From NCBI GenBank assembly GCA_028867755.1, contig JAGWFT010000001.1, positions 260,727 through 324,726 of the forward strand: a stretch of 64,000 nt of DNA, given 5' to 3'. The notes under the pieces were generated by a model. The model was not told where the DNA came from. It ran no database searches and saw nothing but the letters and a program-made list of their open reading frames with translations. The stretch is from Nitrososphaerota archaeon (GTDB lineage: Archaea; Thermoproteota; Nitrososphaeria; Nitrososphaerales; Nitrosopumilaceae). The translations under genes and the position numbers were made by a program. Shown one piece after another: positions 29,379 to 59,884 of this stretch. Each line of letters starts with the position of its first letter. Position 1 is the stretch's first letter.

Positions 29379-29453
29379 GGGCCGATGGTCTAGCCTGGTT
29401 AGGATACCCCCCTGACACGGGGGTGGTCGAGAGTTCAAATCTCTCTCGGCCCA
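29379..29453 (+). tRNA. tRNA-Val(GAC)
   Basis: GGGCCGA/TCGGCCC acceptor stem, CCCCC-CTGACAC-GGGGG anticodon arm, GTTCAAATC T loop. Confidence 0.96.
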
Positions 29454-45589: not shown

Positions 45590-45662
45590 CTTTACACCAA
45601 CTGTAATTATTTCTCCTTAACAACTTAAATGGTTTACTATCTAAACTATTATCAGAATTAAA

Positions 45663-46079
45663 ATGGGGTTGTTTGGAAAGCCAAAAAAGAAAATACTATT
45701 TGCATGCATAGAAAATGCAGGACGAAGCCAAATGGCTGAAGGGTTCTTTAGAAAATATGCTCCAAAAGGATGGGATGTAATAAGTGGTGGGACAGAACCC
45801 AAGTCGTACGTAAATCCACTAGCAATAGAGGTAATGAAAGAAGTTGGAATTGACATTAGTAATCAAAAGGCAAAGATGCTTTCTGAAGATCAAATTCGTA
45901 CTGCAAATCTAAAAGTGAATATGGGTTGTATGGATACAACCAAATGTCCTTCTCTTGTTCTAGGAAATTATGTAGACTGGGGAATTGAAGACCCTAAAGA
46001 CAAGCCAATAGAGAAAGTTCGTGAGATAAGGGATCAGATAGACACAAGAGTAATGAGACTTTGCAAAACTCTAGAATAA
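45663..46079 (+). CDS. arsC: Arsenate reductase (LMW-PTP fold)
   Basis: LFACIENAGRSQMAE, MGC, DWGIEDP. Confidence 0.85.
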   Translation: MGLFGKPKKKILFACIENAGRSQMAEGFFRKYAPKGWDVISGGTEPKSYVNPLAIEVMKEVGIDISNQKAKMLSEDQIRTANLKVNMGCMDTTKCPSLVLGNYVDWGIEDPKDKPIEKVREIRDQIDTRVMRLCKTLE

Positions 46080-46744
46080 CTGACAAGTTAACCTCTAATC
46101 AAAAGAGGTTTTTTGCTGAATTAATTGGTACTTTCATGGTAGTTGTATTTGCAACTGGATCAGTAGTCCTTGATGTAAAATATGTAGGAACATTTGGATT
46201 ATGGTTTGTAGCTTTAGCACCTGCTGTTGCAGTAGCTCTTATGGTTTATGCATTTGGAAAAATATCGATGGCACACTTTAATCCTGCTGTAACAGTTGGA
46301 TTTTTGATTACAAAACATATGCCAAAAAATCTGCTGCTGACATATTTAGCTGCAGAAATAATTGGTGCCCTGCTAGGAAGTGTCTTTGTAAAATATGTGA
46401 TAGGAACAGAAGCAAATCTTGGGGCAAATGCACCAGACTATCATTTTCCAATTCTGCTTATAGTTGGTGTTGAAGTTCTGGCTACTGCATTATTGATGGC
46501 AGTGATTTTGGTAGTTGTCCATACAAAGGAATTGAAGGGCTTTAGTGGGATTGCAATAGGTGGTATAATAGGACTAGACATCTTCTTTTTGGCGTTTATT
46601 TCAGGTGCCTCGATGAACCCGGCAAGATCTCTTGCACCAGCTCTGCTATCTGGATATCTCAATGACTTGTGGCTATATCTGACTGCAACTTTTGTAGGCT
46701 CTGGTATAGCAGCATGTATATACAGAATAAAATTTGCAAGATAG
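46061..46744 (+). CDS. MIP/aquaporin family channel
   Basis: AHFNPAVT and ASMNPARS NPA motifs. Confidence 0.92.
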   Translation: MQNSRITDKLTSNQKRFFAELIGTFMVVVFATGSVVLDVKYVGTFGLWFVALAPAVAVALMVYAFGKISMAHFNPAVTVGFLITKHMPKNLLLTYLAAEIIGALLGSVFVKYVIGTEANLGANAPDYHFPILLIVGVEVLATALLMAVILVVVHTKELKGFSGIAIGGIIGLDIFFLAFISGASMNPARSLAPALLSGYLNDLWLYLTATFVGSGIAACIYRIKFAR

Positions 46745-46801
46745 AAAACCGAAAATCATGCTCTATAATCATATCCAGACGACCTAAATCTTGTTAATAA
46801 T

Positions 46802-46854
46802 GGGGAGTAGGTCTACCTTAATCATAAAATGGATAAGTGACCACGGTAGACCAT
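46802..46854 (-). ncRNA. Putative small hairpin RNA A
   Basis: GGTCTACC/GGTAGACC stem; homologous to 49247-49297; CCTTAGAT box 27 nt upstream. Confidence 0.4.
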
Positions 46855-46990
46855 TACAATTACTACAACAGTGAAATTATCTAAGGATATGCTATAGTTT
46901 TTTGTATACTTCATAGATCTATGTAACTGCTATAAATGAACCACATTCTATACGGTCAATCCTTTTCATAGCCAAAATCAATTCTATGGT

Positions 46991-47401
46991 ATGACAACAG
47001 AGACTCTTGAACGTAACCAATCATTAGATATCCTGTGCAAACAAGTTTCAAGCATCGACAATCATATCGAGCTTGTAGCCATTTTAAATCGTAAAGGTCG
47101 AGTTGTGGAAATGATTGCTAAAGACGATGGAGTAAATAGAGATCTGCCAGCTCAAAAGAGAGAAATGTTGTTTATGGAATTTGTACTCCAAGCTTCCATG
47201 AATACAGAATATGATAACGAATTTGGTAAAGTCAAGGGTTTGATTCTGCAAAGAGAAAAGATCTCTGCATTCTCATTTCAGATATATGATCATGTTTTGG
47301 TAGTTATAACCAGACCAATGTTTGAACCAATAGTTGTACAGCAAAGAATTACTGAAATAATTTTCAATCACGCCAAATTAGAGTTAACAGTAAACTACTA
47401 G
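46991..47401 (+). CDS. Roadblock/profilin-like thaumarchaeal protein
   Basis: I.LVAILNRKGR, EYDNEFGKVK, REK...FSF. Confidence 0.7.
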   Translation: MTTETLERNQSLDILCKQVSSIDNHIELVAILNRKGRVVEMIAKDDGVNRDLPAQKREMLFMEFVLQASMNTEYDNEFGKVKGLILQREKISAFSFQIYDHVLVVITRPMFEPIVVQQRITEIIFNHAKLELTVNY

Positions 47402-47528
47402 AAATCAAAATAATCCTTGAAAACATAAACTAGGTCTAGGACTCGAGAAGAACCAGTGAATAAGTATTCGTCAATTTTGTAACCTATTACAGAATCAAAT
47501 TTAAAAATAAAGAGAGAGGGGGAAGTTA

Positions 47529-49076
47529 TTATGTTGATGGACAGAGGCCACCAGATGGTGGAACTACTTGTCCAGTTGTAGGGCTTATGCACACTTTTGG
47601 AGTGCTACCATGGTTGTCAAAGTCAAACATGCTATCTAGCGAACCAGCCTTGTCATCAAATGATTTCTGGCCTAATGTATCAGGAATACTGCCTGTGTGC
47701 CAGTTGTCCTCAATGAATTTGAGTACTGATGACTGGTCTGATACATCATGGGAGATGAAGTTTGATTTTGCATATGGTGATACTACTAGCAATGGCTGTC
47801 TTGGACCGTAACCACATCTGTCATCTGCACCACCTAGGCCTGCTTTCTTGTCACCACATGTTGGGGCAAAGTCATTGAGTGGGTCATTAGAGTGGTTTAC
47901 TAAAGGAGGCACAGCATGATCATACCACCCATCCGAGTCATCATATAAGATGAATTCGGCGGTGCTTGACCAATCTGGGCTATTCTCCAATGTATTTGTG
48001 ACATTAGCTAGGAATACTTGCTCGTCAAGTGGATCAGAATTTCCTGGATGACCATCTTGAGCTCTAGGTGCTTTTAGGAAAGTCACGGCTGGCAAGTTGC
48101 CATTATTTACTGCCGCATAAAAGAGACTAAGGTCATACTGGTGATTTGCCTGACCATTGTGTCCTATCTCAGCAAGAGATGCAGGGGGTAAATGATGGAT
48201 GTTTGCAGTTGAATTATAGTATTCAAATGGCTCGTGATGTGCACTATATGCTCCAACTGCTGCATTGTCGGTTGCAGTTCTGTGGGTTGTTGCACCGCAA
48301 ACAGCCTTTCCACCGCTAGTTGCTGTTGGTGTAAATCCACCTTGGAACCAACCCCATGTGATACCTTTGTCATTGAGAAGGTCTCCAATGTTCTTTCCGC
48401 TCATAGCTATTGTAGTACCGGCTGAACAGTCATCATATATTGGATCTGCATCAGAAATAGCAGAACCGCCACCAACTGCACCTTCAGTAGCACCAAACGT
48501 CTGACCAGAAATCAAGTTAATCGCTCCTGGTGTTGACGGGCCCCACATTGTGGAAAATGAGTTGTCACTCATTGCAAAGTTTTGAGCAATATTCCATAGT
48601 CCAGTAACAACGCTTCCATCATAATATGCCATTACAGTACTTCCATCTGGTTTACAATTTGTTCCGGTCTTACCTGTGAATTGAACAAACTTGTCGGCCA
48701 GTCCTCCATCATATGCTTTCTGTTCATCAAGGTAACCGTGATCAAAATCACAGGTTATTGCTTGAGATGCACTCAGAAGGAATGGATTAGCCAGGTTTGG
48801 ATTGGCTGTAAGCAGGTTAGGATGTGAGATGTAGTTGTTAGATGATGGGGTATTTGGCTTTGCAGTAAATCCTGCAGCGTTAGGATATGTACCAAAGTAG
48901 TGATCATAAGAAATATTTTCTTGGAATATTACGACCACGTGTTTGATTGGTGTTTTGCTGTCTGTATCTAGATCTGGTCCGAGCGCCCAACTTGAGCTGC
49001 TCATGACAAGAGATGTTATAAGAAGTCCTACGAGAGTTGTTGTTAGAATTTTCGTCATTGAGGCACAAAACAACAC
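47529..49076 (-). CDS. Secreted phosphoesterase (phospholipase C / acid phosphatase AcpA family)
   Basis: Signal peptide; IKHVVVIFQENISYDHYFGTY, GPSTPG, YDDSDGWYDH, YGPRQPLLVVSPYAK. Confidence 0.9.
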   Translation of the reverse strand: MLFCASMTKILTTTLVGLLITSLVMSSSSWALGPDLDTDSKTPIKHVVVIFQENISYDHYFGTYPNAAGFTAKPNTPSSNNYISHPNLLTANPNLANPFLLSASQAITCDFDHGYLDEQKAYDGGLADKFVQFTGKTGTNCKPDGSTVMAYYDGSVVTGLWNIAQNFAMSDNSFSTMWGPSTPGAINLISGQTFGATEGAVGGGSAISDADPIYDDCSAGTTIAMSGKNIGDLLNDKGITWGWFQGGFTPTATSGGKAVCGATTHRTATDNAAVGAYSAHHEPFEYYNSTANIHHLPPASLAEIGHNGQANHQYDLSLFYAAVNNGNLPAVTFLKAPRAQDGHPGNSDPLDEQVFLANVTNTLENSPDWSSTAEFILYDDSDGWYDHAVPPLVNHSNDPLNDFAPTCGDKKAGLGGADDRCGYGPRQPLLVVSPYAKSNFISHDVSDQSSVLKFIEDNWHTGSIPDTLGQKSFDDKAGSLDSMFDFDNHGSTPKVCISPTTGQVVPPSGGLCPST

Positions 49077-49205
49077 ACATCAATTTGATCATGTTGTAAT
49101 TAGATTGCGTTGGACTACTTGTCAAATATTGTCACAATAAAAATTTCTATTTTCTATGTATCTTATTCGATCAAACTATCATAATATGTTTCAAACAAGA
49201 TCAAT

Positions 49206-49222
49206 ATAGAAAACCTTTAGAT
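49206..49222 (+). promoter_or_regulatory. BRE/TATA-like box for putative sRNA B; inverted copy at 49502-49518
   Basis: ATAGAAAACCTTTAGAT, 25 nt upstream of the hairpin start. Confidence 0.45.
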
Positions 49223-49246
49223 GGAAAAAAAGTGTGTGATTACACA

Positions 49247-49297
49247 GGTCTACTGTGATCACATTATCCATTCTTATGATCCAGTAGGCAGCTCCCC
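49247..49297 (+). ncRNA. Putative small hairpin RNA B
   Basis: GTCTACTG/CAGTAGGC and GATCA/TGATC stems; homologous to element A. Confidence 0.4.
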
Positions 49298-49418
49298 GCA
49301 TAATTTTATGGATCATTTTTAGTTGACTAGGTTGAAAAAAAATTTCATTTTGTTAGATCTTACGCGATCATGTAGATCTTTATAATAATTTTACAAATAA
49401 AATTCTGTATTGATGTTG

Positions 49419-49479
49419 GCGGTCTACCCAAAGTGACTTTGGCCTGGAGAACCTGCGCTAATACAAAACGGTAGACCGC
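49419..49479 (-). ncRNA. Putative small RNA C
   Basis: 10-bp stem GCGGTCTACC/GGTAGACCGC, internal hairpin CCAAAG/CTTTGG; same promoter box upstream. Confidence 0.35.
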
Positions 49480-49501
49480 ATTTTTGTAATGATTTTTTTC
49501 T

Positions 49502-49518
49502 ATCTAAAGGTTTTCTAT
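49502..49518 (-). promoter_or_regulatory. BRE/TATA-like box for putative sRNA C
   Basis: Exact reverse complement of 49206-49222. Confidence 0.45.
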
Positions 49519-49708
49519 GATTTCTTGATTGCTTACCATTAGCATTGGTATTTTATGAAATCAATATAGATATGAGATAAATGCCTGCACTACTATCTTT
49601 ACAATAAAAAACTCTAAAAGGTTTTCAAAAAATAAAACAAAAACAATTAGCAATATAGGTATATCCCATGTTAGACACAGAAAATCTCGATCACGTTTTT
49701 ATTTACGA

Positions 49709-50095
49709 ATGTGGCATCTTTATCAGGTTAAAAATTTGGCCGCAACTATAACAAAGATAGTTCGATATAAGGTGAAGAAGAAAAAACTATCAAAGCTAAA
49801 AACTGCTCTTGTAGCGTTTGTTGAGGATATAAAAAGGCACGAGTCTGGCATAGTCCTTTACGAGGTATTCCAAGAAAAGGATGATTCTACCACATTAGTA
49901 CACGTGATGACATTCAAAGATAAGAAGGCCGAGACTGCTCATGTAAAGAGTACACATGTCAAAAAATGGATCAAAACATTACACTCTATTTGCAAAGAAA
50001 ATCCCGAAGTTACAGATCTTAAACTAGTTAGATCGATCAAGGACTTGAAAGAACCATCCTCAGATACTAGTACTGTTCAAGAGCCTCAACAATAA
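49709..50095 (+). CDS. ABM (antibiotic biosynthesis monooxygenase)-like protein
   Basis: HESGIVLYEVFQ...LVHVMTFKD..AETAH..S.H. Confidence 0.75.
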   Translation: MWHLYQVKNLAATITKIVRYKVKKKKLSKLKTALVAFVEDIKRHESGIVLYEVFQEKDDSTTLVHVMTFKDKKAETAHVKSTHVKKWIKTLHSICKENPEVTDLKLVRSIKDLKEPSSDTSTVQEPQQ

Positions 50096-50490
50096 GTGTG
50101 GGTTATTTTGATGATTTTTTGAGCAGTCTCATCTATGTCTACATCTGGTTCCGCGGTTACAAGTAATACTCTTCTGCCAAGCGGAAAACTCATCATAACA
50201 GCTTTTTCTCTTCTAGAGGCAGAATACATCACATGTCCCAAGCTATAATCAAAGTCTTTTCTCAAGGATACACGTAGCACAACATCAGAGTACATCTTTT
50301 TTTGTTCAGCTTCATCTTCGATTGGTACTATTCCATGCTTAAAACCGCCTGTCACTAGATTTCCCATATGATCAATTAGCCCTGCAAATCTTATCTCCGG
50401 CTCTCTAAGCAATCTAACACATTTTAGATCATAAGAAAATAATTCTTGATTGCGTTCCATTATATTTACAGATAATGGCCCTTTGTTCAT
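50086..50490 (-). CDS. Roadblock/profilin-like thaumarchaeal protein
   Basis: IRFAGLID.MGNLV.GG, FDYSLG.V.YSASRREK..MMSFPL. Confidence 0.75.
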   Translation of the reverse strand: MNKGPLSVNIMERNQELFSYDLKCVRLLREPEIRFAGLIDHMGNLVTGGFKHGIVPIEDEAEQKKMYSDVVLRVSLRKDFDYSLGHVMYSASRREKAVMMSFPLGRRVLLVTAEPDVDIDETAQKIIKITHTYC

Positions 50491-50586
50491 AAGTCTTGAA
50501 TCTATATTTTATGAATCCTATGTAGATTATGTATATGAAAACTAATAGTCCAGTAGAACAGATGGCCTGAGGATATTCTATGTGTA

Positions 50587-51312
50587 TTAATAATGCATTA
50601 CACGATCAAGGAATTGATCTATTCTATGTTGCAAATCCTTGTTAATTTCTGCAACAGCCCTGTTTCCATTGATAGGTATGAGACCGTATATCTTTTGCAT
50701 CAAGTGAAATTCTCGAGAAATCTTATTTTGATAAATGAGAAAAGACTCATACATATCATTTGAAAGCCCTATGTCGGCACCAGACTCGTAATGATCTAAA
50801 GACAAATTCTTTTGAAATACTCTATGTATCAGGACTTGGGGTTCAACATCTAGATAAAATACTAGATCAGGCTTTATGGCAAAACCATAGAGACTGTGAC
50901 ACCAATTCTTATCGAGGCCTCGTACCACGTTTCTTGCTATGAGAGTGTAGATGTATCTATCAGCAAGTACTATGTATCCAGCCTGCAATGCAGGTATGAT
51001 CTTGTATTCAAATTGGTCTGCAAAATCTGCAGCGTAGAATAAGGCTAGTGTTTTTCTACCTAGATCATAATGTTGTTTTGCCTCTAAAATTCCCTTGCTT
51101 ACAAGCTCTGATCTTTTGAGACCTGTATTCAAAACAGCATGACCATCAGCTTCTAGTTTTGCCGTAATTTTCTCAATCTGGGTACTTCGGCCAGATGCAT
51201 CAGGTCCCTCGATGACAATTAGCCTACCTTTGATTTCTACATCTTGAAGATGTTTTATACCATGTCCGTAAAACTCGACAGTTCTGTTGTCTAATTCTTT
51301 CTTGTGTTTCAT
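50587..51312 (-). CDS. Thymidylate-kinase-like protein with an altered P-loop (candidate PPK3 non-catalytic subunit)
   Basis: EGPDASGRSTQ (Lys replaced by Arg), DRYIYT, PDLVFYL. Confidence 0.75.
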   Translation of the reverse strand: MKHKKELDNRTVEFYGHGIKHLQDVEIKGRLIVIEGPDASGRSTQIEKITAKLEADGHAVLNTGLKRSELVSKGILEAKQHYDLGRKTLALFYAADFADQFEYKIIPALQAGYIVLADRYIYTLIARNVVRGLDKNWCHSLYGFAIKPDLVFYLDVEPQVLIHRVFQKNLSLDHYESGADIGLSNDMYESFLIYQNKISREFHLMQKIYGLIPINGNRAVAEINKDLQHRIDQFLDRVMHY

Positions 51313-52004
51313 GCTTGTACTTTCCTGGTTTTTACACTCGATGTTTTATGTGGAAGTAATGGCATGATCATTTTTCTTACCATTTTCTGTTGTTCCTCAA
51401 TGTTCAATGTTCCATCTATTATGGTAAATCCCTCTGGCTCTGCCAGAGCATCATACTGTTCAATTATTCTTCCTTGAAATACTCTATAACTCTCATAAGG
51501 ATCATTACTCAAGTTCAGGTCCATTCCTGCTTCATAATACTTTAGTTTGGGGCGGCCTACCAGTATTCTGTCAACTGCAATATCTACTGGAACTCTAAAG
51601 TAAAAAGCTAAATCTGGCTTGATAGCAAAATCATAAACCTTTCTGACCCAATCCGGATTGCAGCCTCTTACAATATCTCTTACAAAAGCAGTGTAAACAT
51701 ATCTGTCTGCCAGTACAAAATATCCTGCACGAAGCAAAGGCAGAATGTTTCTTTCATATCTATCAGCAAAATCTGTTGCATGTAAAAGACTAAAGGTAGT
51801 AGGTGTAAGCAGTCCCTTTTTCTTTCCTTTCGAAGTTATTTCCTTTACCATCTCTGAAGAATTCCACTCTGACTTGAAAATATTGATTCCCTTGTAACCA
51901 AGCCATTTTTCTAAAAGGTGAATCTGGGTTGATTTTCCTGAACCATCTATTCCTTCTACAACAATAAGTTTCCCTTCCATCTTCGATGGTTTTGTTGCTT
52001 TCAA
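51309..52004 (-). CDS. Thymidylate-kinase-like protein (candidate PPK3 catalytic subunit); start possibly 51980
   Basis: EGIDGSGKSTQ, DRYVYT, PDLAFYF. Confidence 0.78.
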   Translation of the reverse strand: MKATKPSKMEGKLIVVEGIDGSGKSTQIHLLEKWLGYKGINIFKSEWNSSEMVKEITSKGKKKGLLTPTTFSLLHATDFADRYERNILPLLRAGYFVLADRYVYTAFVRDIVRGCNPDWVRKVYDFAIKPDLAFYFRVPVDIAVDRILVGRPKLKYYEAGMDLNLSNDPYESYRVFQGRIIEQYDALAEPEGFTIIDGTLNIEEQQKMVRKMIMPLLPHKTSSVKTRKVQA

Positions 52005-52267
52005 GGTAATCTAATAACCCCCCCATCCATTTTTAGGTCTTCCACTTCTTGTACTCATTTTGTATACTGTAATCAAACCTCTTAACAATGTAAATTATGT
52101 TTGTAACTACAATTATGACCTTGATCTATATAGTCCTCATAAGCATATGAAAGATAAGAAATTATAGTCACATATTAGATATCTCACTAAATTTCACCTT
52201 TACATGTGAATAAGATAATTTGTAACTTTACAAAAGTTCTTGTATGAATTAAGGTGATGATATCAGA

Positions 52268-52765
52268 ATGGACTTGTTTATCTTAAGACATGGGGAGGCA
52301 GGCAGAAGCTCTGCCACGGTGAGGGATGATTCAAAAAGAACTCTATCCGTTGAAGGAGAAAAGGAAGTCAAAGACATTTCAAAAGGAATCAAAAGCCTTG
52401 GAATAGAATTTGATTATATCTTAACTAGTCCGCTTTTGCGATCAAAGCAAACTGCAGAACTAGTCTCAAAAATTATAATGCCTAAAAACCCAATTAAAGA
52501 ATTAGATGAGCTAAAGCCTGAAGGCAACAAGCTACAATTCTACAATAAACTATCTAATCTAAAACAGGACTCCTCGGTGCTCATTGTGGGACATGAGCCA
52601 TATCTGAGTGAACTGATAGGAGAGGCGATATCACATGGGGAATGCAAAATAGATTTGAAAAAAGCAAGTCTTGCTCGTATCAGGATAACAATCACGCTTC
52701 CAAAACTTAAAGGAGAATTGAGATGGTTGCTTACTCCGAAACATTTGAAGAGAATGGCTCGATGA
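52268..52765 (+). CDS. sixA: Phosphohistidine phosphatase SixA
   Basis: LRHGEA, TSPLLRSKQTAE, VGHEPYL. Confidence 0.9.
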   Translation: MDLFILRHGEAGRSSATVRDDSKRTLSVEGEKEVKDISKGIKSLGIEFDYILTSPLLRSKQTAELVSKIIMPKNPIKELDELKPEGNKLQFYNKLSNLKQDSSVLIVGHEPYLSELIGEAISHGECKIDLKKASLARIRITITLPKLKGELRWLLTPKHLKRMAR

Positions 52766-52857
52766 TCTGTGTATTCTATATTTTTCACTTGGTAAAAAAA
52801 TGTAAATCTAATCTAGATTAATAGTGATATGTCTATATCGAAACGAGGTAATGTTGG

Positions 52858-54366
52858 CTGAAAATATCAGTAATTGATTTAGGATACAACTCGGCCAAGT
52901 TAGTTACATACAACGTAAAAGATGACGACTTGTTTGACGTTTCTCAACAAGAAGGAATGAAAGTTAAGCTTGGTGAAGGGCTAGATGAAAAGGGAAAACT
53001 GGGCAAAAAGCCAATGTTGCGTGCCATTGAGACTCTAAAGCTGTTCAGAGACATAATCCAGTTACAGCCAATAAAATCTGTTTTGCCAATAGCCACAAGT
53101 GCAGTAAGGGAGGCAAGTAACAAGGACGAGTTCCTAGACGAGGTTTACAGGGAAGCAGGATTCAGATTCAAAGTACTCTCTGAAAAAGAAGAAGCGCTAT
53201 ACTCCTATGTGGGTGCCATCAAATCTCTTCAAATTCCAGATACGCTGTTTTTCGATATAGGGGGAGGTAGTCTAGAGATAGTTCATGCCGAGGGATTCAA
53301 GATAAGAAAGGTAATATCCCTACCACTAGGAGCTCTGAGATTAACACAACAATTTGATGGGGAAAATGAAAGATTCAGTGATAGAAATTATAAGAATATG
53401 AGGAGATTCATCTCAAGTCTTCTACCTGAAAAAAAGGAGATGGGTCTTGGTAAAGATGTAAAACTTGTTGGCGTTGGTGGTGTATTGCGAGCATTAGCTA
53501 GATATGATCAAAAAAATTCGAAATACCCACTAGACAAGATGCACAATTATACAATGAATCTCAAATTTGTTAACTTTGTTACAAAACAGCTTTACAAGAT
53601 GAAATATGATGACATTGCAAAGATCCCAGTCATTGGCTCTAGCAGAGCTGAAACAATAGTGGCTGGTTCTTGTGTGATAGATATACTGATGGAAAAATTT
53701 GGATTTGACAACCTGCATGTTAGCAATCATGGTCTAAGAGAGGGTGCGCTTTCAGTATTTCTTGAAAACCCAAAGGCATATCATGCAAAAAATATCACAG
53801 CAGAACAAATTCGCCAAACAATAGGGTCCAAGATCTCATTTCAGATATTCCAACATACCAAGAGCTTTGTAGAAGGTTTGGTCTCCTCAAGACTACTAAA
53901 TAAACGCGAACTTGAGATCCTCTCATATGCTGAAAAGAAAATATCAGAAAAATTATCATTCAACAATCCACAAAACCTGTTCTATTCCATAATGGATGAG
54001 GACATGGCACTAAGTCATGATAATCAATTAGTTTTGGGATTAGCTCTAGTTCATACAAGACATGTGAAAACATCCGACTGGCTATTTACAAGATACAAGT
54101 CAATTCTATCTCAAAATGACAAATCTACAATAAGAAAAATCTCGTCATTGGTTGTACTGTTAAGAGTTTTGGAGCAGACTAGGTCAAAAATAGAATTGAA
54201 GCGTTACACAGATGGAATAATGGAATTGCATGTTATGCAGTCAAAATCATTGCCAAAGCTATTGCTGAGAAATGCGCTAAATAAATTTGAAAATGCATTT
54301 GATGTCCATGTTATTTGCATGTTAAGAGATAACCAGAACATGCAGAATTCTGTTCTAGAATTATAA
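52858..54366 (+). CDS. ppx: Ppx/GppA exopolyphosphatase, probably CTG-initiated
   Basis: The frame extends upstream of the tracked start to (L)KISVIDLGYNS; IATSAVREASN, DIGGGSLE, GLREG. Confidence 0.9.
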   Translation: MKISVIDLGYNSAKLVTYNVKDDDLFDVSQQEGMKVKLGEGLDEKGKLGKKPMLRAIETLKLFRDIIQLQPIKSVLPIATSAVREASNKDEFLDEVYREAGFRFKVLSEKEEALYSYVGAIKSLQIPDTLFFDIGGGSLEIVHAEGFKIRKVISLPLGALRLTQQFDGENERFSDRNYKNMRRFISSLLPEKKEMGLGKDVKLVGVGGVLRALARYDQKNSKYPLDKMHNYTMNLKFVNFVTKQLYKMKYDDIAKIPVIGSSRAETIVAGSCVIDILMEKFGFDNLHVSNHGLREGALSVFLENPKAYHAKNITAEQIRQTIGSKISFQIFQHTKSFVEGLVSSRLLNKRELEILSYAEKKISEKLSFNNPQNLFYSIMDEDMALSHDNQLVLGLALVHTRHVKTSDWLFTRYKSILSQNDKSTIRKISSLVVLLRVLEQTRSKIELKRYTDGIMELHVMQSKSLPKLLLRNALNKFENAFDVHVICMLRDNQNMQNSVLEL

Positions 54367-55179
54367 AATTAATTTTCTAGGGTTATCCAGTCCCTCATTT
54401 TTAAAAACTTGAACAAATCTTTGATATTTTTCCCTTCTCTCAAGAATTTCCTCTCTTATTGTTTCTGACAATTCATGAGGTCCCTCTACTCCCCTCAAAT
54501 AATCTAGAAACATATCGCTATCATGAATTGAGCCTAGTTCATCTTGGATCTTTTTCAAACTTTTAATTGATTTTAGGGAATCTATCTTATCGGAAGTTAA
54601 TTCAATTGAGTAGCGTAGTTTCTTGAAATCTTTTCGTAGTTCATGAATCTCCTCTATTTTCTTGTCATCATTTAAGACAATGGGAATGTTACGATCTATT
54701 TCATCAATTAATTCCGATATGATTTTTTGAAATCTTTTACGAAGTTTTGTTTCCATAACATCTTTTTCTTTCAGTCTGGGCGGGGAAATGCTCTTTAATT
54801 TTAAGGCCAGTCTATGTCCTGCATTTAGCTGGTGTTTGCGTTTGCCATTTATAGAATCTATAATCTGGTTGAATTGAGTAGGATGACGTTTCTTTAATTT
54901 GGCACAAATTATGTCAAAATCCCTCATTTGCGTATTAATATTGAATAGGGCTTTGGCTTGCTTTACATAGCCCTGAATATCCTCGGCTTTTCTATTCTTT
55001 TTAGGCAAAATTCTGTAAATTGATCCCATACGTCTAATTGCTATTCTTATATCGTGAATGTTGGCCTCGTTTGGGTCTTCGATATAGTTATCTAATTTTT
55101 TGGTAAATGTCTTGATAATTTTTTTAAATTTTTTTACAAGTAATTTCTTTCTGGGATAGATTACTTGTTTTGTTCTCAT
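54361..55179 (-). CDS. CHAD-domain polyphosphate-binding protein
   Basis: IHDIRIAIRR, RDFDI, IHELRKDFKKLRY, QDELGSIHD. Confidence 0.9.
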   Translation of the reverse strand: MRTKQVIYPRKKLLVKKFKKIIKTFTKKLDNYIEDPNEANIHDIRIAIRRMGSIYRILPKKNRKAEDIQGYVKQAKALFNINTQMRDFDIICAKLKKRHPTQFNQIIDSINGKRKHQLNAGHRLALKLKSISPPRLKEKDVMETKLRKRFQKIISELIDEIDRNIPIVLNDDKKIEEIHELRKDFKKLRYSIELTSDKIDSLKSIKSLKKIQDELGSIHDSDMFLDYLRGVEGPHELSETIREEILERREKYQRFVQVFKNEGLDNPRKLIL

Positions 55180-55271
55180 TATGATTTCATCTCCAATGAC
55201 ACGTCTTTGGATCTTCTAATTTGAATTGTTATGACAAAAAATTAACATTTTAATCGACTGGAACGTATTTT

Positions 55272-56321
55272 TTATGAGCCATTTTCCGAGATTACATCTT
55301 GCACTGTCTCGTTAATTACTGCTTCTGCAATATCGCTTGAATACTCGGCCGTTCTGCGAATATCTTCCAAAACAAACTTGATTACACTGGAATACTTTTT
55401 GGATTCTTCCAGGCTGTCTGTGAATTCTTTCTCTTTTTCAGCTATTCTGCATGCATTTGTTGCAACAACATCTGCTAGTGTATAATCTCTTTTGTTGAGA
55501 GCGGCAATTGAATCCTCGAAGACTTTGAGCGATTCCTCGCTTAGTTTTGTAATCTTTTGTAGAAGAGCTGGTTCAAGTGTAGATTTGAGAAATTTTACTC
55601 TGCTTGCTATTGAGACTGCATGGTCTGCAACCCTTTCTATTGATTTTACCACTATCCTATAGCTTATACAATCAGAGGGTTTCTTTAATCCAATATCTCG
55701 TAATATTCTTTCATGTTCTACTGCGAGTGTAAGGTTTCGTAATATGTATAGACTAAAACGATCAACCTCATCATCCAAATGAGTGATCTCTTCTCCAAGC
55801 TCTACATCCATTTCCTTCAAGGCATCAATGGCCTGTCTGTGCATTGTGATTGTTAACAAGGACATACGTTTCAAAGCATCATTTATGGAAAGCTCTGGCA
55901 GACTAGTCAAGATTTGAATTGTGATGGATTCTGGTGTTGACTCGACAATTTCTGTACCTATCATGTTTCTTCTCACAAGATCTCTTATTGCCTGCTTATG
56001 CTCTAGTTGTATCCTTCCTCCTTTGGAGTGGATCTCAATTACTTGATAACCAGACAAGTACATCGCTATCACCTTTCGTTGAATGGATTCAACTGGTTCT
56101 TTTTGGCTTATGACAGTCTTTGATTTTGCTACCTTGGATGACTGGGAGCTTCCTGTTGGTAAGATTGAAAGAGATCTATTAACATTTTTTACAATAGAAA
56201 CTGGGTCTCCTGTTTTAAGATTTAACTCATCAATCCATTTCTTAGGAAGTGAGAGTACGTAGGTAGATCCACCTACAAGCTGTAGCTTTCGTACCTCTTT
56301 CTCGTTTAGTAGTTCTGCCAA
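55272..56321 (-). CDS. Archaeal phosphate regulator (AbrB + PhoU domains)
   Basis: RKLQLVGGSTYVLSLPKKW, DDEVDRF, ERVADHA. Confidence 0.9.
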   Translation of the reverse strand: MAELLNEKEVRKLQLVGGSTYVLSLPKKWIDELNLKTGDPVSIVKNVNRSLSILPTGSSQSSKVAKSKTVISQKEPVESIQRKVIAMYLSGYQVIEIHSKGGRIQLEHKQAIRDLVRRNMIGTEIVESTPESITIQILTSLPELSINDALKRMSLLTITMHRQAIDALKEMDVELGEEITHLDDEVDRFSLYILRNLTLAVEHERILRDIGLKKPSDCISYRIVVKSIERVADHAVSIASRVKFLKSTLEPALLQKITKLSEESLKVFEDSIAALNKRDYTLADVVATNACRIAEKEKEFTDSLEESKKYSSVIKFVLEDIRRTAEYSSDIAEAVINETVQDVISENGS

Positions 56322-56455
56322 TGTTTTTCTCTATATCTGTATAATTAAAGCGGTTATGACCGCGTTCTATGTAGTACTATATAGAACTATATTCAAATAT
56401 GAAACTTAAGAAATCACGGTCGAACTTCTGATATCTTTCTCGACGATCAGACAAA

Positions 56456-57433
56456 TTGTACTTGATGGAAACTGTTAAGCTAAGGGGAGGCTCTCCTCTA
56501 TATGATAAGATTTTCAAAATTGGAGCTGCTATTGCTGCCACTTATGTGCTGGCAATCATAGTTCTGATCGTAGTTCAGCTAGTTACTAACTCGTATCAAA
56601 TATGGGCTCAGGAGGGGATCTCGTTTCTGATTGGATCAGATTGGAATGCTGTAGAAGGCAGCGAATCATATGGTGCAGCACCTTACATAATAGGCACGTT
56701 TGTGACTGCCGGGCTTGCTATGCTTATCGGAGTGCCGTTAAGCATGGGCATTGCAATGTTTCTGTCAGAACTTGCACCTAAATTTCTGCGTTCTATACTC
56801 TCATTTATAGTTGAGTTGCTAGCTGCTATTCCAAGTATAATTTACGGGTTATGGGGGCTGTTCGTGTTTAGGACTTACCTTCTGAATTGGGTTGAAACCC
56901 CACTTAACAATGCTTTTGGCGGTAGTTTCTGGCTCTTCTCAGGAACTCCATTTGGACTTGATATCTTCACTGCAAGTGTAGTACTTGCTATTATGATAAT
57001 TCCAACAATAGCTTCTATTTCACGAGAGATCATGATTGCAGTTCCAAACAGCCAGAGAGAGGCTGCATACATGCTAGGTGCAACAAAGTGGGAAGTATTC
57101 AAGATGGCCGTAGTTCCATATTCCAAGTCTGGTCTTGTTGGCGCCTCAATACTTGGACTTGGACGGGCAGTAGGAGAAACCATGGCTATTACAATGTTAA
57201 TTGGAAATGCCACAGGACAAAGTGCATTCCCCTCATCTTTGTTCTCACCAGGTCAAACATTGTCAAGTATAATTGCAAATGAGTTTCCAGAAGCTTCCAG
57301 TGGAAGTCTTCACATGGCAGCACTAATTGGATGTGGATTGATACTTTTCATTATTGCAATAGTCATAAACATAGTTGCACAACTCCTAGTTTCTAGAGTA
57401 CTAAAAACACACCAAGGAGCAGTTTTAGTATGA
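56456..57433 (+). CDS. pstC: Phosphate ABC transporter permease PstC
   Basis: ELLAAIPSIIYGLWG, GLGRAVGETMA, TLSSIIANEF. Confidence 0.93.
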   Translation: MYLMETVKLRGGSPLYDKIFKIGAAIAATYVLAIIVLIVVQLVTNSYQIWAQEGISFLIGSDWNAVEGSESYGAAPYIIGTFVTAGLAMLIGVPLSMGIAMFLSELAPKFLRSILSFIVELLAAIPSIIYGLWGLFVFRTYLLNWVETPLNNAFGGSFWLFSGTPFGLDIFTASVVLAIMIIPTIASISREIMIAVPNSQREAAYMLGATKWEVFKMAVVPYSKSGLVGASILGLGRAVGETMAITMLIGNATGQSAFPSSLFSPGQTLSSIIANEFPEASSGSLHMAALIGCGLILFIIAIVINIVAQLLVSRVLKTHQGAVLV

Positions 57434-58344
57434 TCACAATAGAGCAACGAGCAGAATTTAGGAAACATTTTAGAAATAATATCTCAAGTAGGCTAATTAC
57501 CGATAAGATAGTAAAGGGAATTGTATTTGGCTGTGTTCTACTAGCCATAATTCCTCTAGGAAGTATTCTTCTTGAAATTGTAAGAAACGGAGCTCCTGTA
57601 TTGAGCATAGAATTCCTTACTGCTCCTCCTGGAGCAGTAGGATCAGATGACCCTGGTGGAATTGGTCCTGCGATTCAAGGAACTTTAATGTTAATTGGTA
57701 TGTCAAGCTTAATTGGAGTACCAGTTGGGGTCTTGGGGGGCATATTTCTTTCAGAGTATGGCAACAACAAATACGGCCAGATGATAAGATTTTTCAACGA
57801 TGTCTTGGCAGAATTTCCTACCATCGTAATAGGACTTTTTGCATTTGCGGTCATCGTACTTACACTTGGTTACTTTTCTATTGTTGCAGGAATGTTTGCA
57901 CTATCAGTTATAATGTTGCCAATTATAACAAGAACAACTGAAGAATCACTGAAGCTTGTTCCTGTGACATACAGAGAGGCAGGATATGCACTTGGAATCA
58001 AAAGATCGGTGGTAATATTTAGAATTCTGTTAACAAGTGCCAAAAGTGGCTTGATCACGGGAATCATGTTATCAATAGCAAGAATAGCAGGTGAGACGGC
58101 TCCTCTAATTTTTACAATTCTTGGTAACAGTGACTTTTTTTCAGGTTTTGATCAACCGGTGGATGCTTTACCGCTCAGAATCTACCGACTCGCAAATCTT
58201 CCTTATGACACTGCAACAGCTCAAGGATGGGGAGGGGCGTTAATTTTGATATTAATAATACTCACACTTAACGTAGGAGTAAGATACTTGTTCCTAAGAA
58301 AACGTGGAGGAGGTGGCAGATTTAGAATCGCAGCAGGTGGATAA
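57430..58344 (+). CDS. pstA: Phosphate ABC transporter permease PstA
   Basis: [26 protein letters not shown]. Confidence 0.93.
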
Positions 58345-58345
58345 A

Positions 58346-59152
58346 ATGGAAACGCTCACAAGAACTCCGACTACACAGAAATCTTCAGAAGAACCACGAT
58401 ACAAGCTAATTGCAGAAGATATTGTTGCAAGCTACAATGGTATTCAAGCTGTAAAGAAAGTTAACATGAAATTTAGAGAAAAAGCAGTTACTGCACTAAT
58501 AGGACCATCTGGATGTGGAAAAACTACATTCCTTCGCTGTCTTAACAGAATGCATGAATTGACAAAGAGTGCCACAGTGACTGGAAAAGTTTTGCTGGAT
58601 GGTCAAGATCTGTATTCAAATCGAGAAGATGCCATTATGCACAGAAGAAAGATAGGAATGGTCTTCCAAAAACCAAATCCATTTCCTACAATGTCAATTT
58701 ATGATAACGTAGCTGCAGGACTGAAGTTAAACGGTGTAAAAGACAAAAAGGTCATGGATCAAATAGTACAAGGATGTCTAGAAATGGTATACCTCTGGGA
58801 TGAGGTAAAGCATGATCTGAAAAAGGCTGGAATGAGCCTTTCAGGAGGACAACAACAACGTCTGTGCATTGCGCGTGCCCTTGCTATACAACCCGAAGTT
58901 CTCTTGATGGATGAACCTGCATCTGCACTTGATCCAATTGCTACTCAGAAGATTGAAGAAATGATAAACGAGCTTAAAAAAGAATATACCATAATCATAG
59001 TAACACATAACATGCAGCAGGCTGTGAGAGTGTCTGATTATACCGGCTTTATGTATCTGGGAGATTTGGTTGAGTTTGGGGAGACTAAACAAATCTTTGA
59101 GAATCCAAGAAATGAGATTACGGCCAAGTATGTCCAGGGGCAATTTGGCTAG
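58346..59152 (+). CDS. pstB: Phosphate ABC transporter ATPase PstB
   Basis: [42 protein letters not shown]. Confidence 0.95.
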
Positions 59153-59779
59153 TTGACAAGACTAATAGATCCCCATCTACAAAAACTATCTTTCCTGATG
59201 GGGAAAATGGGTACAATGGCTCTTCAATCCATAAACTTGTCCTTAGATTCTTACCTTGAGGGAAAAAATGTGCGCCATGAAGCACACAAGTTGTCTCAGG
59301 AGATAATGAGCCTGTATGACGAGGTAGGCAACTTGACGTTTGAAATGATACTGAAATACCAGCCTGTTGCAAGCGATTTTAGATTAATCAGGTCATGCAT
59401 TGAGGTTTCCTATGGTTTCACTCGTTTTGGTCGCTATGCATATGACATTGCAGCAGTCAGAGACATGTTCGGTGATCTTTCAGAATGCAGAAACGATGTC
59501 ATCTACACGCTTTCAGGCGAGATAAAACATATGATAAATCTAGCAGTAGAGTGCTTTGCAACTTTGGACTTGGAAAAGACAAAGCAACTTAGAACAGATG
59601 AGGACTTGGTAGACAAGTACTATAACAAACATCTTCCAATGTTGATTAATTCCAATAATGTAAAATGCGCCCTTGCTGATGCATTGGTTCTTAGATATCT
59701 GGAAAGAATAGCTGATCACGCTGCATTCATGGGTGAGTCGGCAGAGTATATTGTCACAGGACAACGACGTTTTCACTAA
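59153..59779 (+). CDS. phoU: Phosphate transport regulator PhoU
   Basis: YQPVASDFR and YLERIADHA; follows pstB. Confidence 0.9.
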   Translation: MTRLIDPHLQKLSFLMGKMGTMALQSINLSLDSYLEGKNVRHEAHKLSQEIMSLYDEVGNLTFEMILKYQPVASDFRLIRSCIEVSYGFTRFGRYAYDIAAVRDMFGDLSECRNDVIYTLSGEIKHMINLAVECFATLDLEKTKQLRTDEDLVDKYYNKHLPMLINSNNVKCALADALVLRYLERIADHAAFMGESAEYIVTGQRRFH

Positions 59780-59884
59780 CTATTCTTCATAACTGTATCA
59801 TATCTATATAGTTAACATAGCTTATGGGTAATTATGTAAACTATTCTGAACATATGTAAATAACAAATCTTTTGCCATCCAATC

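What the first reader, a model, noticed from the sequence alone, without database searches (positions are those of the whole stretch)
46802..49297. Two homologous ~50-nt structured RNAs with compensatory changes flank the phosphoesterase region
Seen: element A (46852 to 46802, minus strand) is GGTCTACC-GT-GGTCA-CTTATCCATTTTA-TGATT-AA-GGTAGACC-TACTCCCC. Element B (49247-49297, plus strand) is GGTCTACTG-T-GATCA-CATTATCCATTCTTA-TGATC-CAGTAGGC-AGCTCCCC. A C-G to T-A swap preserves the outer stem, and all non-Watson-Crick pairs are G-U only in these orientations, which identifies the functional strand. The loop TTATCCATT and the 3' CTCCCC are conserved. Each starts 25-27 nt after a CCT(T)TAGAT box. 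Inference: an undescribed archaeal sRNA family whose exposed loop and C-rich tail could pair with start-codon or SD regions.
Basis: partly seen in the sequence, partly recalled or inferred. Interest (0 to 1): 0.75.

Follow-up and report, generated by a model that had tools for sequence, protein, structure and literature searches.

The report
New small-RNA genes in Nitrosotalea phosphate island
Two paralogous ~50-base hairpin RNAs, plus a third that shares their promoter and closing stem, are very likely undescribed small non-coding RNA genes in the phosphate-handling gene cluster of acid-soil ammonia-oxidising archaea (Nitrosotalea); neither their expression nor their targets have been shown.

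Summary
Elements A (46852..46802, minus) and B (49247..49297, plus) are homologous. Both fold into the same two-step hairpin with a free UACUCCCC / AGCUCCCC tail. They are the only two copies in this 1.64-Mb genome.

A covariance model finds the element in 17 of 61 Nitrosotalea genomes and in one genome of a sister genus, always at the same syntenic places.
- 95.8% of stem cells pair across 23 distinct sequences.
- Four pairs show double-sided changes. Pair 8 is U-A 9, C-G 8, U-G 6, with no mispairs.

Each element starts 24-26 nt after a CCTT(T)AGAT box. The tRNA genes of this genome have the same box type (CCTTTAAAT, CCTTAATAA) at the same spacing. U-runs follow each element.

A third gene, C (49477..49421, minus), shares the promoter and closing stem but has a different interior.

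The copies are not MITEs, transposon ends, leaders or members of any Rfam family. All sit in a phosphate island (phosphoesterase, Ppx, CHAD, AbrB-PhoU, pst). Their promoters carry an island-enriched ATATAG-type motif.

No RNA data could be obtained and the targets are unknown. My best target hit turned out to be promoter DNA and was rejected. This is a new family of a known kind (archaeal intergenic sRNAs).

I did not check it.

The parts
46802..46852 (-). sRNA A core: closing stem GGUCUACC/GGUAGACC, inner stem, loop CUUAUCCAUUUUA, free tail UACUCCCC
46879..46895 (-). Promoter of A: ATAG-N5-CCTTAGAT (TATA-type box; 26 nt from the end of the box to G1)
   Evidence: same box type and spacing as the tRNA promoters
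46745..46801 (-). Probable 3' extension of A up to the U-runs (UUUU at 46755-46752 and 46748-46745). Predicted RNA is about 98-108 nt and ends next to the stop codon of the convergent MIP gene.
   Evidence: in other genomes a U6 run lies about 38 nt after the tail. Inferred, not shown.
46912..46923 (.). Perfect 12-bp palindrome CATAGATCTATG between A and the divergent DUF6659a gene. Conserved across genomes; candidate regulator site.
49206..49222 (+). Promoter of B: ATAGAAAACCTTTAGAT (24 nt from the end of the box to G1). ATATAGA at 49204-49210 is a copy of the island-enriched motif.
49247..49297 (+). sRNA B core, paralogue of A: stem GUCUACUG/CAGUAGGC, inner stem GAUCA/UGAUC, tail AGCUCCCC
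49298..49320 (+). Conserved 3' block of B, GCAUAAUUUUAUGGAUCAUUUUU, with U4 (49304-49307) and U5 (49316-49320) runs. Probable terminator; predicted RNA is about 74 nt.
49421..49477 (-). sRNA C: same closing stem GGUCUACC/GGUAGACC (GC clamp extends it to 49419-49479) but a different 41-nt interior and tail GCCAACAU. Convergent with B.
   Evidence: z -3.3; conserved in G068, G061, G063, G018, G047 with G-U wobbles on this strand
49502..49518 (-). Promoter of C: ATAGAAAACCTTTAGAT, identical to B's (24 nt from the box to GGUCUACC)
46991..47401 (+). DUF6659a gene, divergent from A. Roadblock/LC7-fold protein; the usual neighbour of type-A copies.
47529..49076 (-). PF04185 phosphoesterase gene between A and B. 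Absent from this position in some genomes.

Best explanation
A and B are two paralogous genes for small non-coding RNAs, about 75-105 nt as transcribed, with a conserved 50-nt 5' module. C is a third gene that shares the same promoter and closing stem.

How I think it works:
- Each gene has its own archaeal promoter: a TATA-type CCTT(T)AGAT box preceded by an (A/C)(T/C)ATAG motif.
- Transcription starts at or next to the first G of GGUCUAC and stops at U-runs 20-55 nt past the hairpin.
- The RNA folds so that its 5' end is locked in an 8-9-bp stem. This leaves a nearly invariant C-rich 3' tail (UACUCCCC) and a variable loop single-stranded.

Most likely function (inferred): trans-acting regulatory RNAs of the phosphate/polyphosphate gene island. 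They would be switched on and off together with that island through the shared ATATAG-type promoter motif. The C-rich tail would act as the seed that pairs with G-rich sites in target RNAs, and the hairpin would act as a stabilising or protein-docking module.

Shown: sequence, fold, conservation, covariation, strand, promoter geometry, genomic context.
Inferred: transcription, RNA ends, co-regulation, base-pairing mode.

Sub-odds: a real structured small-RNA gene family about 0.75; a base-pairing regulator about 0.4; phosphate-linked regulation about 0.35.
For: - Structure. Both fold far better than shuffles on the stated strand. Across 23 distinct sequences 95.8% of stem cells pair, and 4 pairs carry double-sided changes. 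Pair 8 is UA 9 / CG 8 / UG 6 with no mispairs. In G054 pair 1 is A-U instead of G-C. 0 of 500 shuffles reach the covariation score, and sliding the partners drops pairing to 23-39%.
- Strand. There are 17 G-U/U-G cells against 2 A.C/C.A, or 16 against 2 without the two unpublished genomes. C also shows G-U wobbles on its own strand.
- Variable spacer. The closing stem encloses 27 nt in A and B, 20 nt in G054, 36 nt in G199 and 41 nt in C. This fits RNA pairing and not a fixed DNA operator.
- Promoter. The box lies 24-26 nt before G1 in every copy. In this genome tRNA-Glu, -Gly, -Phe and -Val have CCTTTAAAT, CCTTTAATA, ACTTTAATT and CCTTAATAA exactly 25 nt before the mature 5' end. The full ATAG-N-CTT(T)AGAT signature occurs 5 times in the genome, and 3 of these are A, B and C.
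- Conservation. The element is in 17 of 61 genomes of the genus and one genome of another genus, plus 5 metagenome copies. It always sits at the same syntenic sites, while the flanking proteins are only 65-90% identical.
- Context. Phosphoesterase, two Tmk-like kinases, SixA-like, Ppx, CHAD, AbrB-PhoU, pstCAB-phoU-pstS. In other genomes the element sits beside AbrB-PhoU or DUF6659.
- Island motif. TCTATAT/ATATAGA has 9 of its 71 intergenic genome copies in the 1.9 kb of island intergenic DNA (expected 0.54), one of them abutting B's TATA box.
- Paralogue behaviour. A and B co-evolve within genomes: 100% identical in G047, 94% in G018 and G068, against about 78-80% between genomes.
Against: - No transcript evidence of any kind: no RNA run was listed, so the ends and even expression are inferred.
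- Variation is low. Most stem columns are nearly invariant, so covariation rests mainly on pair 8 plus three rarer events, and the sequences are phylogenetically related.
- No target was identified. GGGGAG is not enriched before start codons. The one outstanding hit (Tmk2 upstream, rank 1 of 2803) lies in promoter DNA, not in an mRNA.
- The motif enrichment was tested after I had noticed the motif.
- The strong sequence conservation of the stem arms could partly reflect a promoter or initiator constraint rather than RNA function.
- The family is absent from most Nitrosotalea genomes, including five high-quality ones that keep the same arsC-MIP and Tmk genes. Any role is therefore dispensable.
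Confidence: 0.7

Rival explanations
1. A DNA-level regulatory element. The inverted repeat GGTCTACC...GGTAGACC just downstream of a TATA box is an operator for a dimeric regulator (for example AbrB-PhoU or HxlR) that controls the divergent genes, and no functional RNA is involved.
For: The arm sequences themselves, not only their pairing, are highly conserved and are shared by A, B and C. Palindromes and an island-specific motif lie nearby. Expression is unproven.
Against: Wobble asymmetry of 17 G-U against 2 A.C is not expected for a double-stranded site. The spacing between the arms varies (20, 27, 36, 41 nt). The asymmetric CUCCCC tail and the fixed distance from a TATA box are conserved. 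The sites lie 140-200 bp from the divergent genes' start codons.
Confidence: 0.1
2. A cis element of neighbouring mRNAs rather than a stand-alone RNA. Element A would act as antisense to, or as a structure within, a long 3' UTR of the convergent arsC-MIP transcript. On the MIP strand the first T-run (T6, 46898-46903) lies beyond A. B would be a 5' leader of the downstream ABM gene.
For: On the plus strand there is no T-run between the MIP stop (46744) and 46898, so a MIP transcript may read through A. That T-run is conserved upstream of type-A copies. In G075 and G054 the element lies about 100-150 nt upstream of rtcA in the same orientation.
Against: On the MIP strand the hairpin has C.A mismatches. 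Several copies are not next to MIP. B is followed by U-runs and by the convergent gene C before ABM, 410 nt away. Each copy has its own promoter box.
Confidence: 0.08
3. Remnant of a mobile element: A and B are terminal inverted repeats of a cassette (DUF6659a plus phosphoesterase), or MITE copies.
For: A and B are inverted, face outward and bracket 2.4 kb. The same inverted pair occurs in five other genomes 0.7-3.2 kb apart. A and B homogenise within genomes.
Against: There are only two copies per genome, at fixed syntenic sites. There is no transposase and no target-site duplication (flanks TTAATAAT and GCATAATT). Many genomes have A alone. G061 has both with only DUF6659a between them. The two copies have different, individually conserved flanks.
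Confidence: 0.02
4. A real small RNA that works by binding a protein rather than by base pairing. The sequence-conserved closing stem shared by A, B and C would be a docking or processing site.
For: The closing-stem sequence is kept even where the whole interior is replaced (C; the G054 and G199 variants). The loop is not conserved across the genus. No convincing mRNA target was found.
Against: No RNA-binding protein gene is linked. The constant neighbour DUF6659 has a Roadblock/LC7 fold, which is not a known RNA binder. The invariant single-stranded C-rich tail looks like a pairing seed.
Confidence: 0.1

Closest known systems
Haloferax volcanii sRNA132 (phosphate-starvation sRNA; Kliemt et al. 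2019, PMC6560208)
   Same: An intergenic archaeal small RNA with its own promoter that is tied to phosphate handling. sRNA132 accumulates at low phosphate and controls pst operons (abstract). The elements here sit inside a pst/phoU/ppx/phosphoesterase island and share a promoter-proximal motif with it.
   Different: No sequence or structural similarity was tested or is expected. Different phylum. Regulation by phosphate and targets are shown for sRNA132 and only inferred here. The elements here are duplicated (A, B) and have a sibling (C) with the same closing stem.
C-rich-motif sRNAs that pair with Shine-Dalgarno regions (RsaE/RoxS of Firmicutes; from my own knowledge, not tested here)
   Same: An unpaired C-rich motif (CUCCCC) next to a stable hairpin. 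It is a plausible seed for G-rich ribosome-binding sites.
   Different: Those are bacterial and carry several C-rich motifs in loops. Here there is one motif, in a 3' tail. Many archaeal mRNAs are leaderless, and GGGGAG is not enriched before start codons in this genome.
Generic archaeal intergenic sRNAs with a BRE/TATA promoter and oligo-U terminator (review: PMC4152357). Includes the hairpin RNA genes noted by this scan between radA and rps30e of another Nitrosotalea (e1-5198467).
   Same: Same gene architecture: a TATA box about 25 nt upstream, a short structured transcript and U-run ends.
   Different: Different sequence, locus and structure. No Rfam family covers it.
Archaeal C/D box and H/ACA guide sRNAs
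   Same: Similar size (50-70 nt) and an independent archaeal small-RNA gene.
   Different: No C (RUGAUGA) or D (CUGA) boxes, no K-turn, no ACA box and no pseudouridylation pocket. The UGAUCA/UGAUC segments form an ordinary Watson-Crick helix.

Membership tests
Any Rfam 15 family | Score at or above the family's gathering threshold | tested here: not met
   The window at gathering threshold gives only a tRNA at 29379. The region at E<=10 gives only chance hits (rhtB 24.8 bits against 55; atoC 17.9 against 50). Homologous loci give nothing.
Intergenic trans-acting archaeal sRNA (generic class) | Own promoter (TATA box about 25 nt upstream of the start) | tested here: met
   CCTT(T)AGAT lies 24-26 nt before G1 in all copies. 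tRNA promoters of the same genome have the same box type and spacing.
Intergenic trans-acting archaeal sRNA (generic class) | Conserved secondary structure supported by covariation on one strand | tested here: met
   95.8% paired, 4 pairs with double changes, G-U 17 against A.C 2.
Intergenic trans-acting archaeal sRNA (generic class) | A discrete transcript is detected | not testable with these tools
   No RNA holder was listed for this stretch.
Intergenic trans-acting archaeal sRNA (generic class) | Base pairing with target mRNAs | tested here: inconclusive
   The duplex scan's top hit (Tmk2 upstream) is promoter DNA. No other outlier stands out.
MITE / transposon terminal inverted repeats | Many dispersed copies, target-site duplications, or a transposase between the repeats | tested here: not met
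   Two copies per genome at syntenic sites. No direct repeats at the outer ends. The genes between the copies are DUF6659 and a phosphoesterase.
C/D box sRNA | C box RUGAUGA near the 5' end, D box CUGA near the 3' end, K-turn | tested here: not met
   Direct reading of A, B and 23 homologues finds no such boxes.
Riboswitch / 5' leader | Lies upstream of, and is co-oriented with, the regulated gene, without an intervening terminator | tested here: not met
   A is convergent with MIP. B is followed by U-runs and the convergent gene C. The exceptions are G075 and G054, where rtcA follows in the same orientation.
DNA operator (palindromic regulator site) | Fixed half-site spacing and strand-symmetric substitutions | tested here: not met
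   Spacing between the arms is 20, 27, 36 or 41 nt. Substitutions are strand-asymmetric.

The most novel reading that the evidence does not exclude
A, B and C form a small-RNA module of the archaeal Pho regulon. They would be switched by the same regulator that reads the island's TCTATATAGA-type motif (perhaps the AbrB-PhoU protein), and they would tune phosphate/polyphosphate or arsenate-handling genes post-transcriptionally. That would make them the first regulatory RNAs with an assignable physiological circuit in ammonia-oxidising archaea.
Probability: 0.3. Interest if true: 0.65.

Novelty: new member of a known kind. Interest (0 to 1): 0.45.

Why it matters
Regulatory RNAs are essentially uncharted in ammonia-oxidising archaea (Nitrososphaerota). 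Searches of the paper library found nothing on sRNAs in Nitrosotalea and nothing on sRNA or transcription-start mapping in this group.

This family comes with unusually clean comparative support: a promoter, covariation, an assigned strand and synteny. It also has a clear physiological address, the phosphate/polyphosphate island. That gives a concrete, testable entry point for three things:
- Northern blots or small-RNA-seq under phosphate limitation.
- Defining a thaumarchaeal Pho box.
- Adding a new model to Rfam.

It is confined to part of one genus, its function is unknown, and sRNAs of this architecture are a familiar kind. Its importance is therefore moderate.

Tried and rejected
- RNA evidence: no RNA holder was listed for window:46000-50500. 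Nothing can be said on expression.
- Rfam: no family matched.
- Alignment: MAFFT misaligned the 3' halves of A and B. I therefore built model R1 from A alone, recovered B with it and rebuilt R2 and R3 from structure-guided alignments.
- Whole-genome first-look filter: it missed B with R1 and one G051 copy with R2. Genome counts are therefore lower bounds.
- Exact-pattern search in relatives found almost nothing.
- SD-targeting idea: GGGGAG is no more often followed by a start codon than control hexamers.
- Target scan: the upstream region of the second Tmk-like gene ranked 1 of 2803 for sRNA A (loop -14.0, tail -11.6 kcal/mol). I rejected it for three reasons. Cognate pairs are no better than non-cognate ones across nine genomes. 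The complementary stretch CCTAAAAATGG is the gene's TATA box plus spacer, about 24-27 nt before the start codon of a leaderless or near-leaderless gene. The same TATA-type box (AAACCTAAAAT), without the ATGG and G-run, stands at that position in genomes without the sRNA.
- Anti-SD comparison: the assembly has no 16S rRNA gene.
- Hits outside the genus in genus g33 (L028-L030) lack the promoter and tail and look like coding sequence.
- Metagenome hits L110/L136 (GC-rich small replicon-like contigs), L083/L140 and L112 share the pre-selected 15-mer and a GGTCT(A/G)C or GGTTTAC 5' arm but nothing else. I judge them to be chance.
- Alternative terminator/antiterminator pairing of B with the downstream UGGAUCAU: not supported. 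It reflects the palindromic GAUC present in all these segments.
- Small-ORF reading: MIKVDLLPIINKI in A against MIQ in B. Not conserved.
Full report
**1. Observation**

Each folds into the same shape:
- an 8-bp closing stem, a one-base bulge and a 5-6-bp inner stem;
- a 13-15-nt loop and an 8-nt free tail ending in CUCCCC.

The energies are -17.5 and -15.9 kcal/mol (z -3.5 and -2.9). One of 200 dinucleotide shuffles folds as well in each case. The complementary strands fold less well. The C-G to U-A swap at stem position 8, the G-U-only wobbles, and the promoter-like box 24-26 nt upstream are all present. A covariance model built from A alone recovers B at 25.6 bits. Pattern and model searches find no further copy in the 1.64-Mb assembly. 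No Rfam 15 family matches.

**2. Comparative evidence**

Record titles place the genome's relatives in Candidatus Nitrosotalea. Model R2 (A+B) and then R3 (21 sequences) found the element in 17 of 61 genomes of the genus, 13 of them among the 32 high-quality genomes, with E-values down to about 1e-16. These counts are lower bounds because the first-look filter loses copies. A sample of 150 genomes from 27 genera of the family gave one credible copy outside the genus: G199, with the same promoter box and stems but a different loop and tail. A metagenome scan added five more Nitrosotalea-type copies.

On the final alignment of 23 distinct sequences:
- 95.8% of stem cells form standard pairs.
- Four pairs show changes on both sides. 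Pair 8 is U-A 9, C-G 8, U-G 6, with no mispair.
- In G054 the first pair is A-U instead of G-C.
- No shuffle out of 500 reaches the observed covariation score.
- Sliding the 3' partners by 1-3 columns drops pairing to 23-39%.
- Wobble pairs are strand-specific: 17 G-U/U-G cells against 2 A.C/C.A.

Two rows (L013 from G017, L015 from G010) come from genomes flagged as unpublished. Without them the counts are 16 against 2, and pair 8 is U-A 9, C-G 6, U-G 6, so no conclusion depends on them. G017 was also one of nine genomes in the Tmk2-upstream comparison in section 6. Variation is modest and the sequences are related. I therefore regard the structure as well supported but not proven to R-scape standard.

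**3. What is conserved**

The closing stem and the UACUCCCC tail are nearly invariant. The interior is replaceable:
- G047 has a loop without CCAU.
- G010 and metagenome copy L089 have a C/U-rich loop.
- G054 replaces the entire inner hairpin.
- G199 has a longer interior.

A third element, C (49477..49421, -), was first pointed out by another note of this scan (e1-5719838). It has the same closing stem around an unrelated 41-nt interior and a promoter identical to B's. It folds with z -3.3. It is conserved in five other genomes, again with G-U wobbles only on its own strand. The distance between the two arms varies (20, 27, 36, 41 nt). That fits an RNA helix and not a DNA operator.

**4. Transcription signals**

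Every copy has CCTT(T)AGAT(A/G) ending 24-26 nt before G1, preceded 5-6 nt upstream by (A/C)(T/C)ATAG. In this genome the tRNA genes carry CCTTTAAAT, CCTTTAATA, ACTTTAATT or CCTTAATAA exactly 25 nt before the mature 5' end. The box therefore has the sequence and geometry of the organism's TATA element. The combined ATAG-N4-8-CTT(T)AGAT signature occurs five times in the genome, three of them at A, B and C.

Downstream signals:
- B is followed by a conserved GCAUAAUUUUAUGGAUCAUUUUU block with U4 and U5 runs.
- Type-A copies are followed about 38-55 nt later by U4-U6 runs.
- C is followed by U4 and U3 runs.

Predicted RNAs are about 74 nt (B), 98-108 nt (A) and 83 nt (C). These ends are inferred. 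No conserved ORF exists in any of them.

**5. Genomic context**

The gene order in the window is: HxlR(-), ArsC-like LMW phosphatase(+), MIP channel(+), [A-], DUF6659a(+), PF04185 phosphoesterase(-), [B+], [C-], ABM(+), DUF6659b(-), two Tmk-like kinases(-), SixA-like(+), Ppx(+), CHAD(-), AbrB-PhoU regulator(-), pstC, pstA, pstB, phoU, pstS(+).

- Type A always lies on the strand opposite to its neighbours. It usually sits between the MIP 3' end and the start of DUF6659a.
- Type B lies next to C.
- The phosphoesterase is missing between A and B in G061 and absent from the locus in G005 and G065.
- In G062, G075, G054 and G199 the element sits beside the AbrB-PhoU regulator, a DUF6659 gene or rtcA.
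- Five high-quality genomes without the element keep HxlR-ArsC-MIP but lack DUF6659a next to it.
- DUF6659a is predicted to have a Roadblock/LC7/MglB fold: pLDDT 73, with Foldseek hits to LAMTOR, MglB and Roadblock proteins at E about 1e-4. This gives no hint of RNA binding.

This distribution rules out MITEs and transposon ends. There are two fixed copies, no duplicated target sites, no transposase, and each copy has its own individually conserved flanks.

**6. Function**

The link to phosphate is contextual. The heptamer TCTATAT/ATATAGA is the core of CTATATAG. Nine of its 71 intergenic genome copies lie in the 1.9 kb of intergenic DNA of this island, where 0.54 would be expected. This test was post hoc. 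The CTATATAGA copy between Tmk2 and SixA is conserved in all nine genomes compared, including G199 from the sister genus. One copy abuts B's TATA box and is largely conserved there across genomes (intact in three of the six type-B promoters, one or two substitutions in the others). A and C carry the related (C/A)(T/C)ATAG at the same place. I infer co-regulation with the island.

Target searches did not settle anything.
- GGGGAG is not enriched before start codons.
- A duplex scan ranked the upstream region of the second Tmk-like gene first of 2803 for sRNA A.
- I reject that hit. The complementary stretch is the gene's TATA box and spacer, upstream of a leaderless or near-leaderless start. 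Cognate sRNA-target pairs are no better than non-cognate ones. The same TATA-type box (AAACCTAAAAT), without the ATGG and G-run, stands at that position in genomes without the sRNA.

A and B are more alike within a genome than between genomes: 100% in G047 and 94% in G018 and G068, against about 78-80%. This fits gene conversion between inverted paralogues, selection for a shared partner, or both.

My working model is a trans-acting RNA. Its 5' end is protected in the closing stem and its C-rich tail is the pairing seed. A protein-docking role for the sequence-conserved stem is the main alternative. Part of that stem conservation may simply reflect promoter or initiator constraints on the first eight transcribed bases, with the 3' arm tracking them.

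**7. Comparison and novelty**

The closest functional analogue is Haloferax volcanii sRNA132, a phosphate-starvation sRNA controlling pst operons (PMC6560208). The likeness is in gene type and physiology, not in sequence. C-rich seed sRNAs of Firmicutes (RsaE/RoxS; my own knowledge) are a mechanistic analogy only. C/D-box, H/ACA, riboswitch, MITE and operator readings each fail at least one defining feature. Literature searches found nothing on sRNAs in Nitrosotalea and nothing on sRNA or transcription-start mapping in ammonia oxidisers.

Verdict: a real, undescribed small-RNA family (A/B) with a sibling (C). It is a new member of a known kind, of moderate interest, and needs transcript evidence.

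Noticed in passing
window 45590-59884 (copies at 49204, 49564, 50501, 52125, 52775, 52832, 56330, 56379, 56497, 59803): The heptamer TCTATAT/ATATAGA (core CTATATAG) is strongly enriched in the intergenic DNA of the phosphate island: 9 of 71 intergenic genome copies in 1.9 kb, where 0.54 is expected. The copy between Tmk2 and SixA is conserved in nine genomes including another genus. It is a candidate thaumarchaeal Pho box, perhaps read by the AbrB-PhoU regulator.
   Followed up: partly
window 46912-46923: Perfect 12-bp palindrome CATAGATCTATG between sRNA A and the divergent DUF6659a gene. It is conserved, with small changes, upstream of type-A copies in most genomes.
   Followed up: partly
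window 46991-47401 and 50086-50490: The two DUF6659 proteins are Roadblock/LC7/MglB-fold proteins (AlphaFold model pLDDT 73; Foldseek hits to LAMTOR, MglB and Asgard Roadblock). They are paralogues embedded in the phosphate island, and no GTPase partner was noted among the annotated neighbours.
   Followed up: partly
window 51980-52045 (upstream of the Tmk-like gene 51309-52004): The Tmk-like pair appears to be transcribed from a CCTAAAAAT TATA box only about 24 nt before the annotated TTG start. The mRNA is therefore leaderless or the true start is the ATG eight codons downstream. Genomes without the sRNA have AAACCTAAAAT 27 nt before an ATG.
   Followed up: partly
L058 (G075:C4:75518-78566) and L059 (G054:C11:14031-17075): In two Nitrosotalea genomes the element lies about 100-150 nt upstream of, and co-oriented with, an RNA 3'-terminal phosphate cyclase (RtcA-like) gene, next to AbrB-PhoU. 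The G054 copy has its whole inner hairpin replaced but keeps the closing stem and tail.
   Followed up: no
L011/L021 (G047), L016/L024 (G018), L020/L005 (G068): Paralogues A and B are identical or 94% identical within these genomes yet differ from their orthologues elsewhere. This is concerted evolution, probably gene conversion between inverted copies 2.5-3.2 kb apart.
   Followed up: partly
L110 and L136 (metagenome contigs of about 1.7 kb): Small GC-rich contigs encode a 303-aa Cys-rich protein and carry GGTCTAC-GGGGAGGCCGGGGCCCC-GTAGACC-TACTCCCC. The arms and tail are the same as in the Nitrosotalea RNA but the organism is unrelated. Probably chance, after pre-selection on the 15-mer.
   Followed up: no
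whole assembly G000: No archaeal SSU rRNA gene is present in the 112-contig assembly despite 99.95% marker completeness, so the anti-Shine-Dalgarno sequence cannot be read from this genome.
   Followed up: yes
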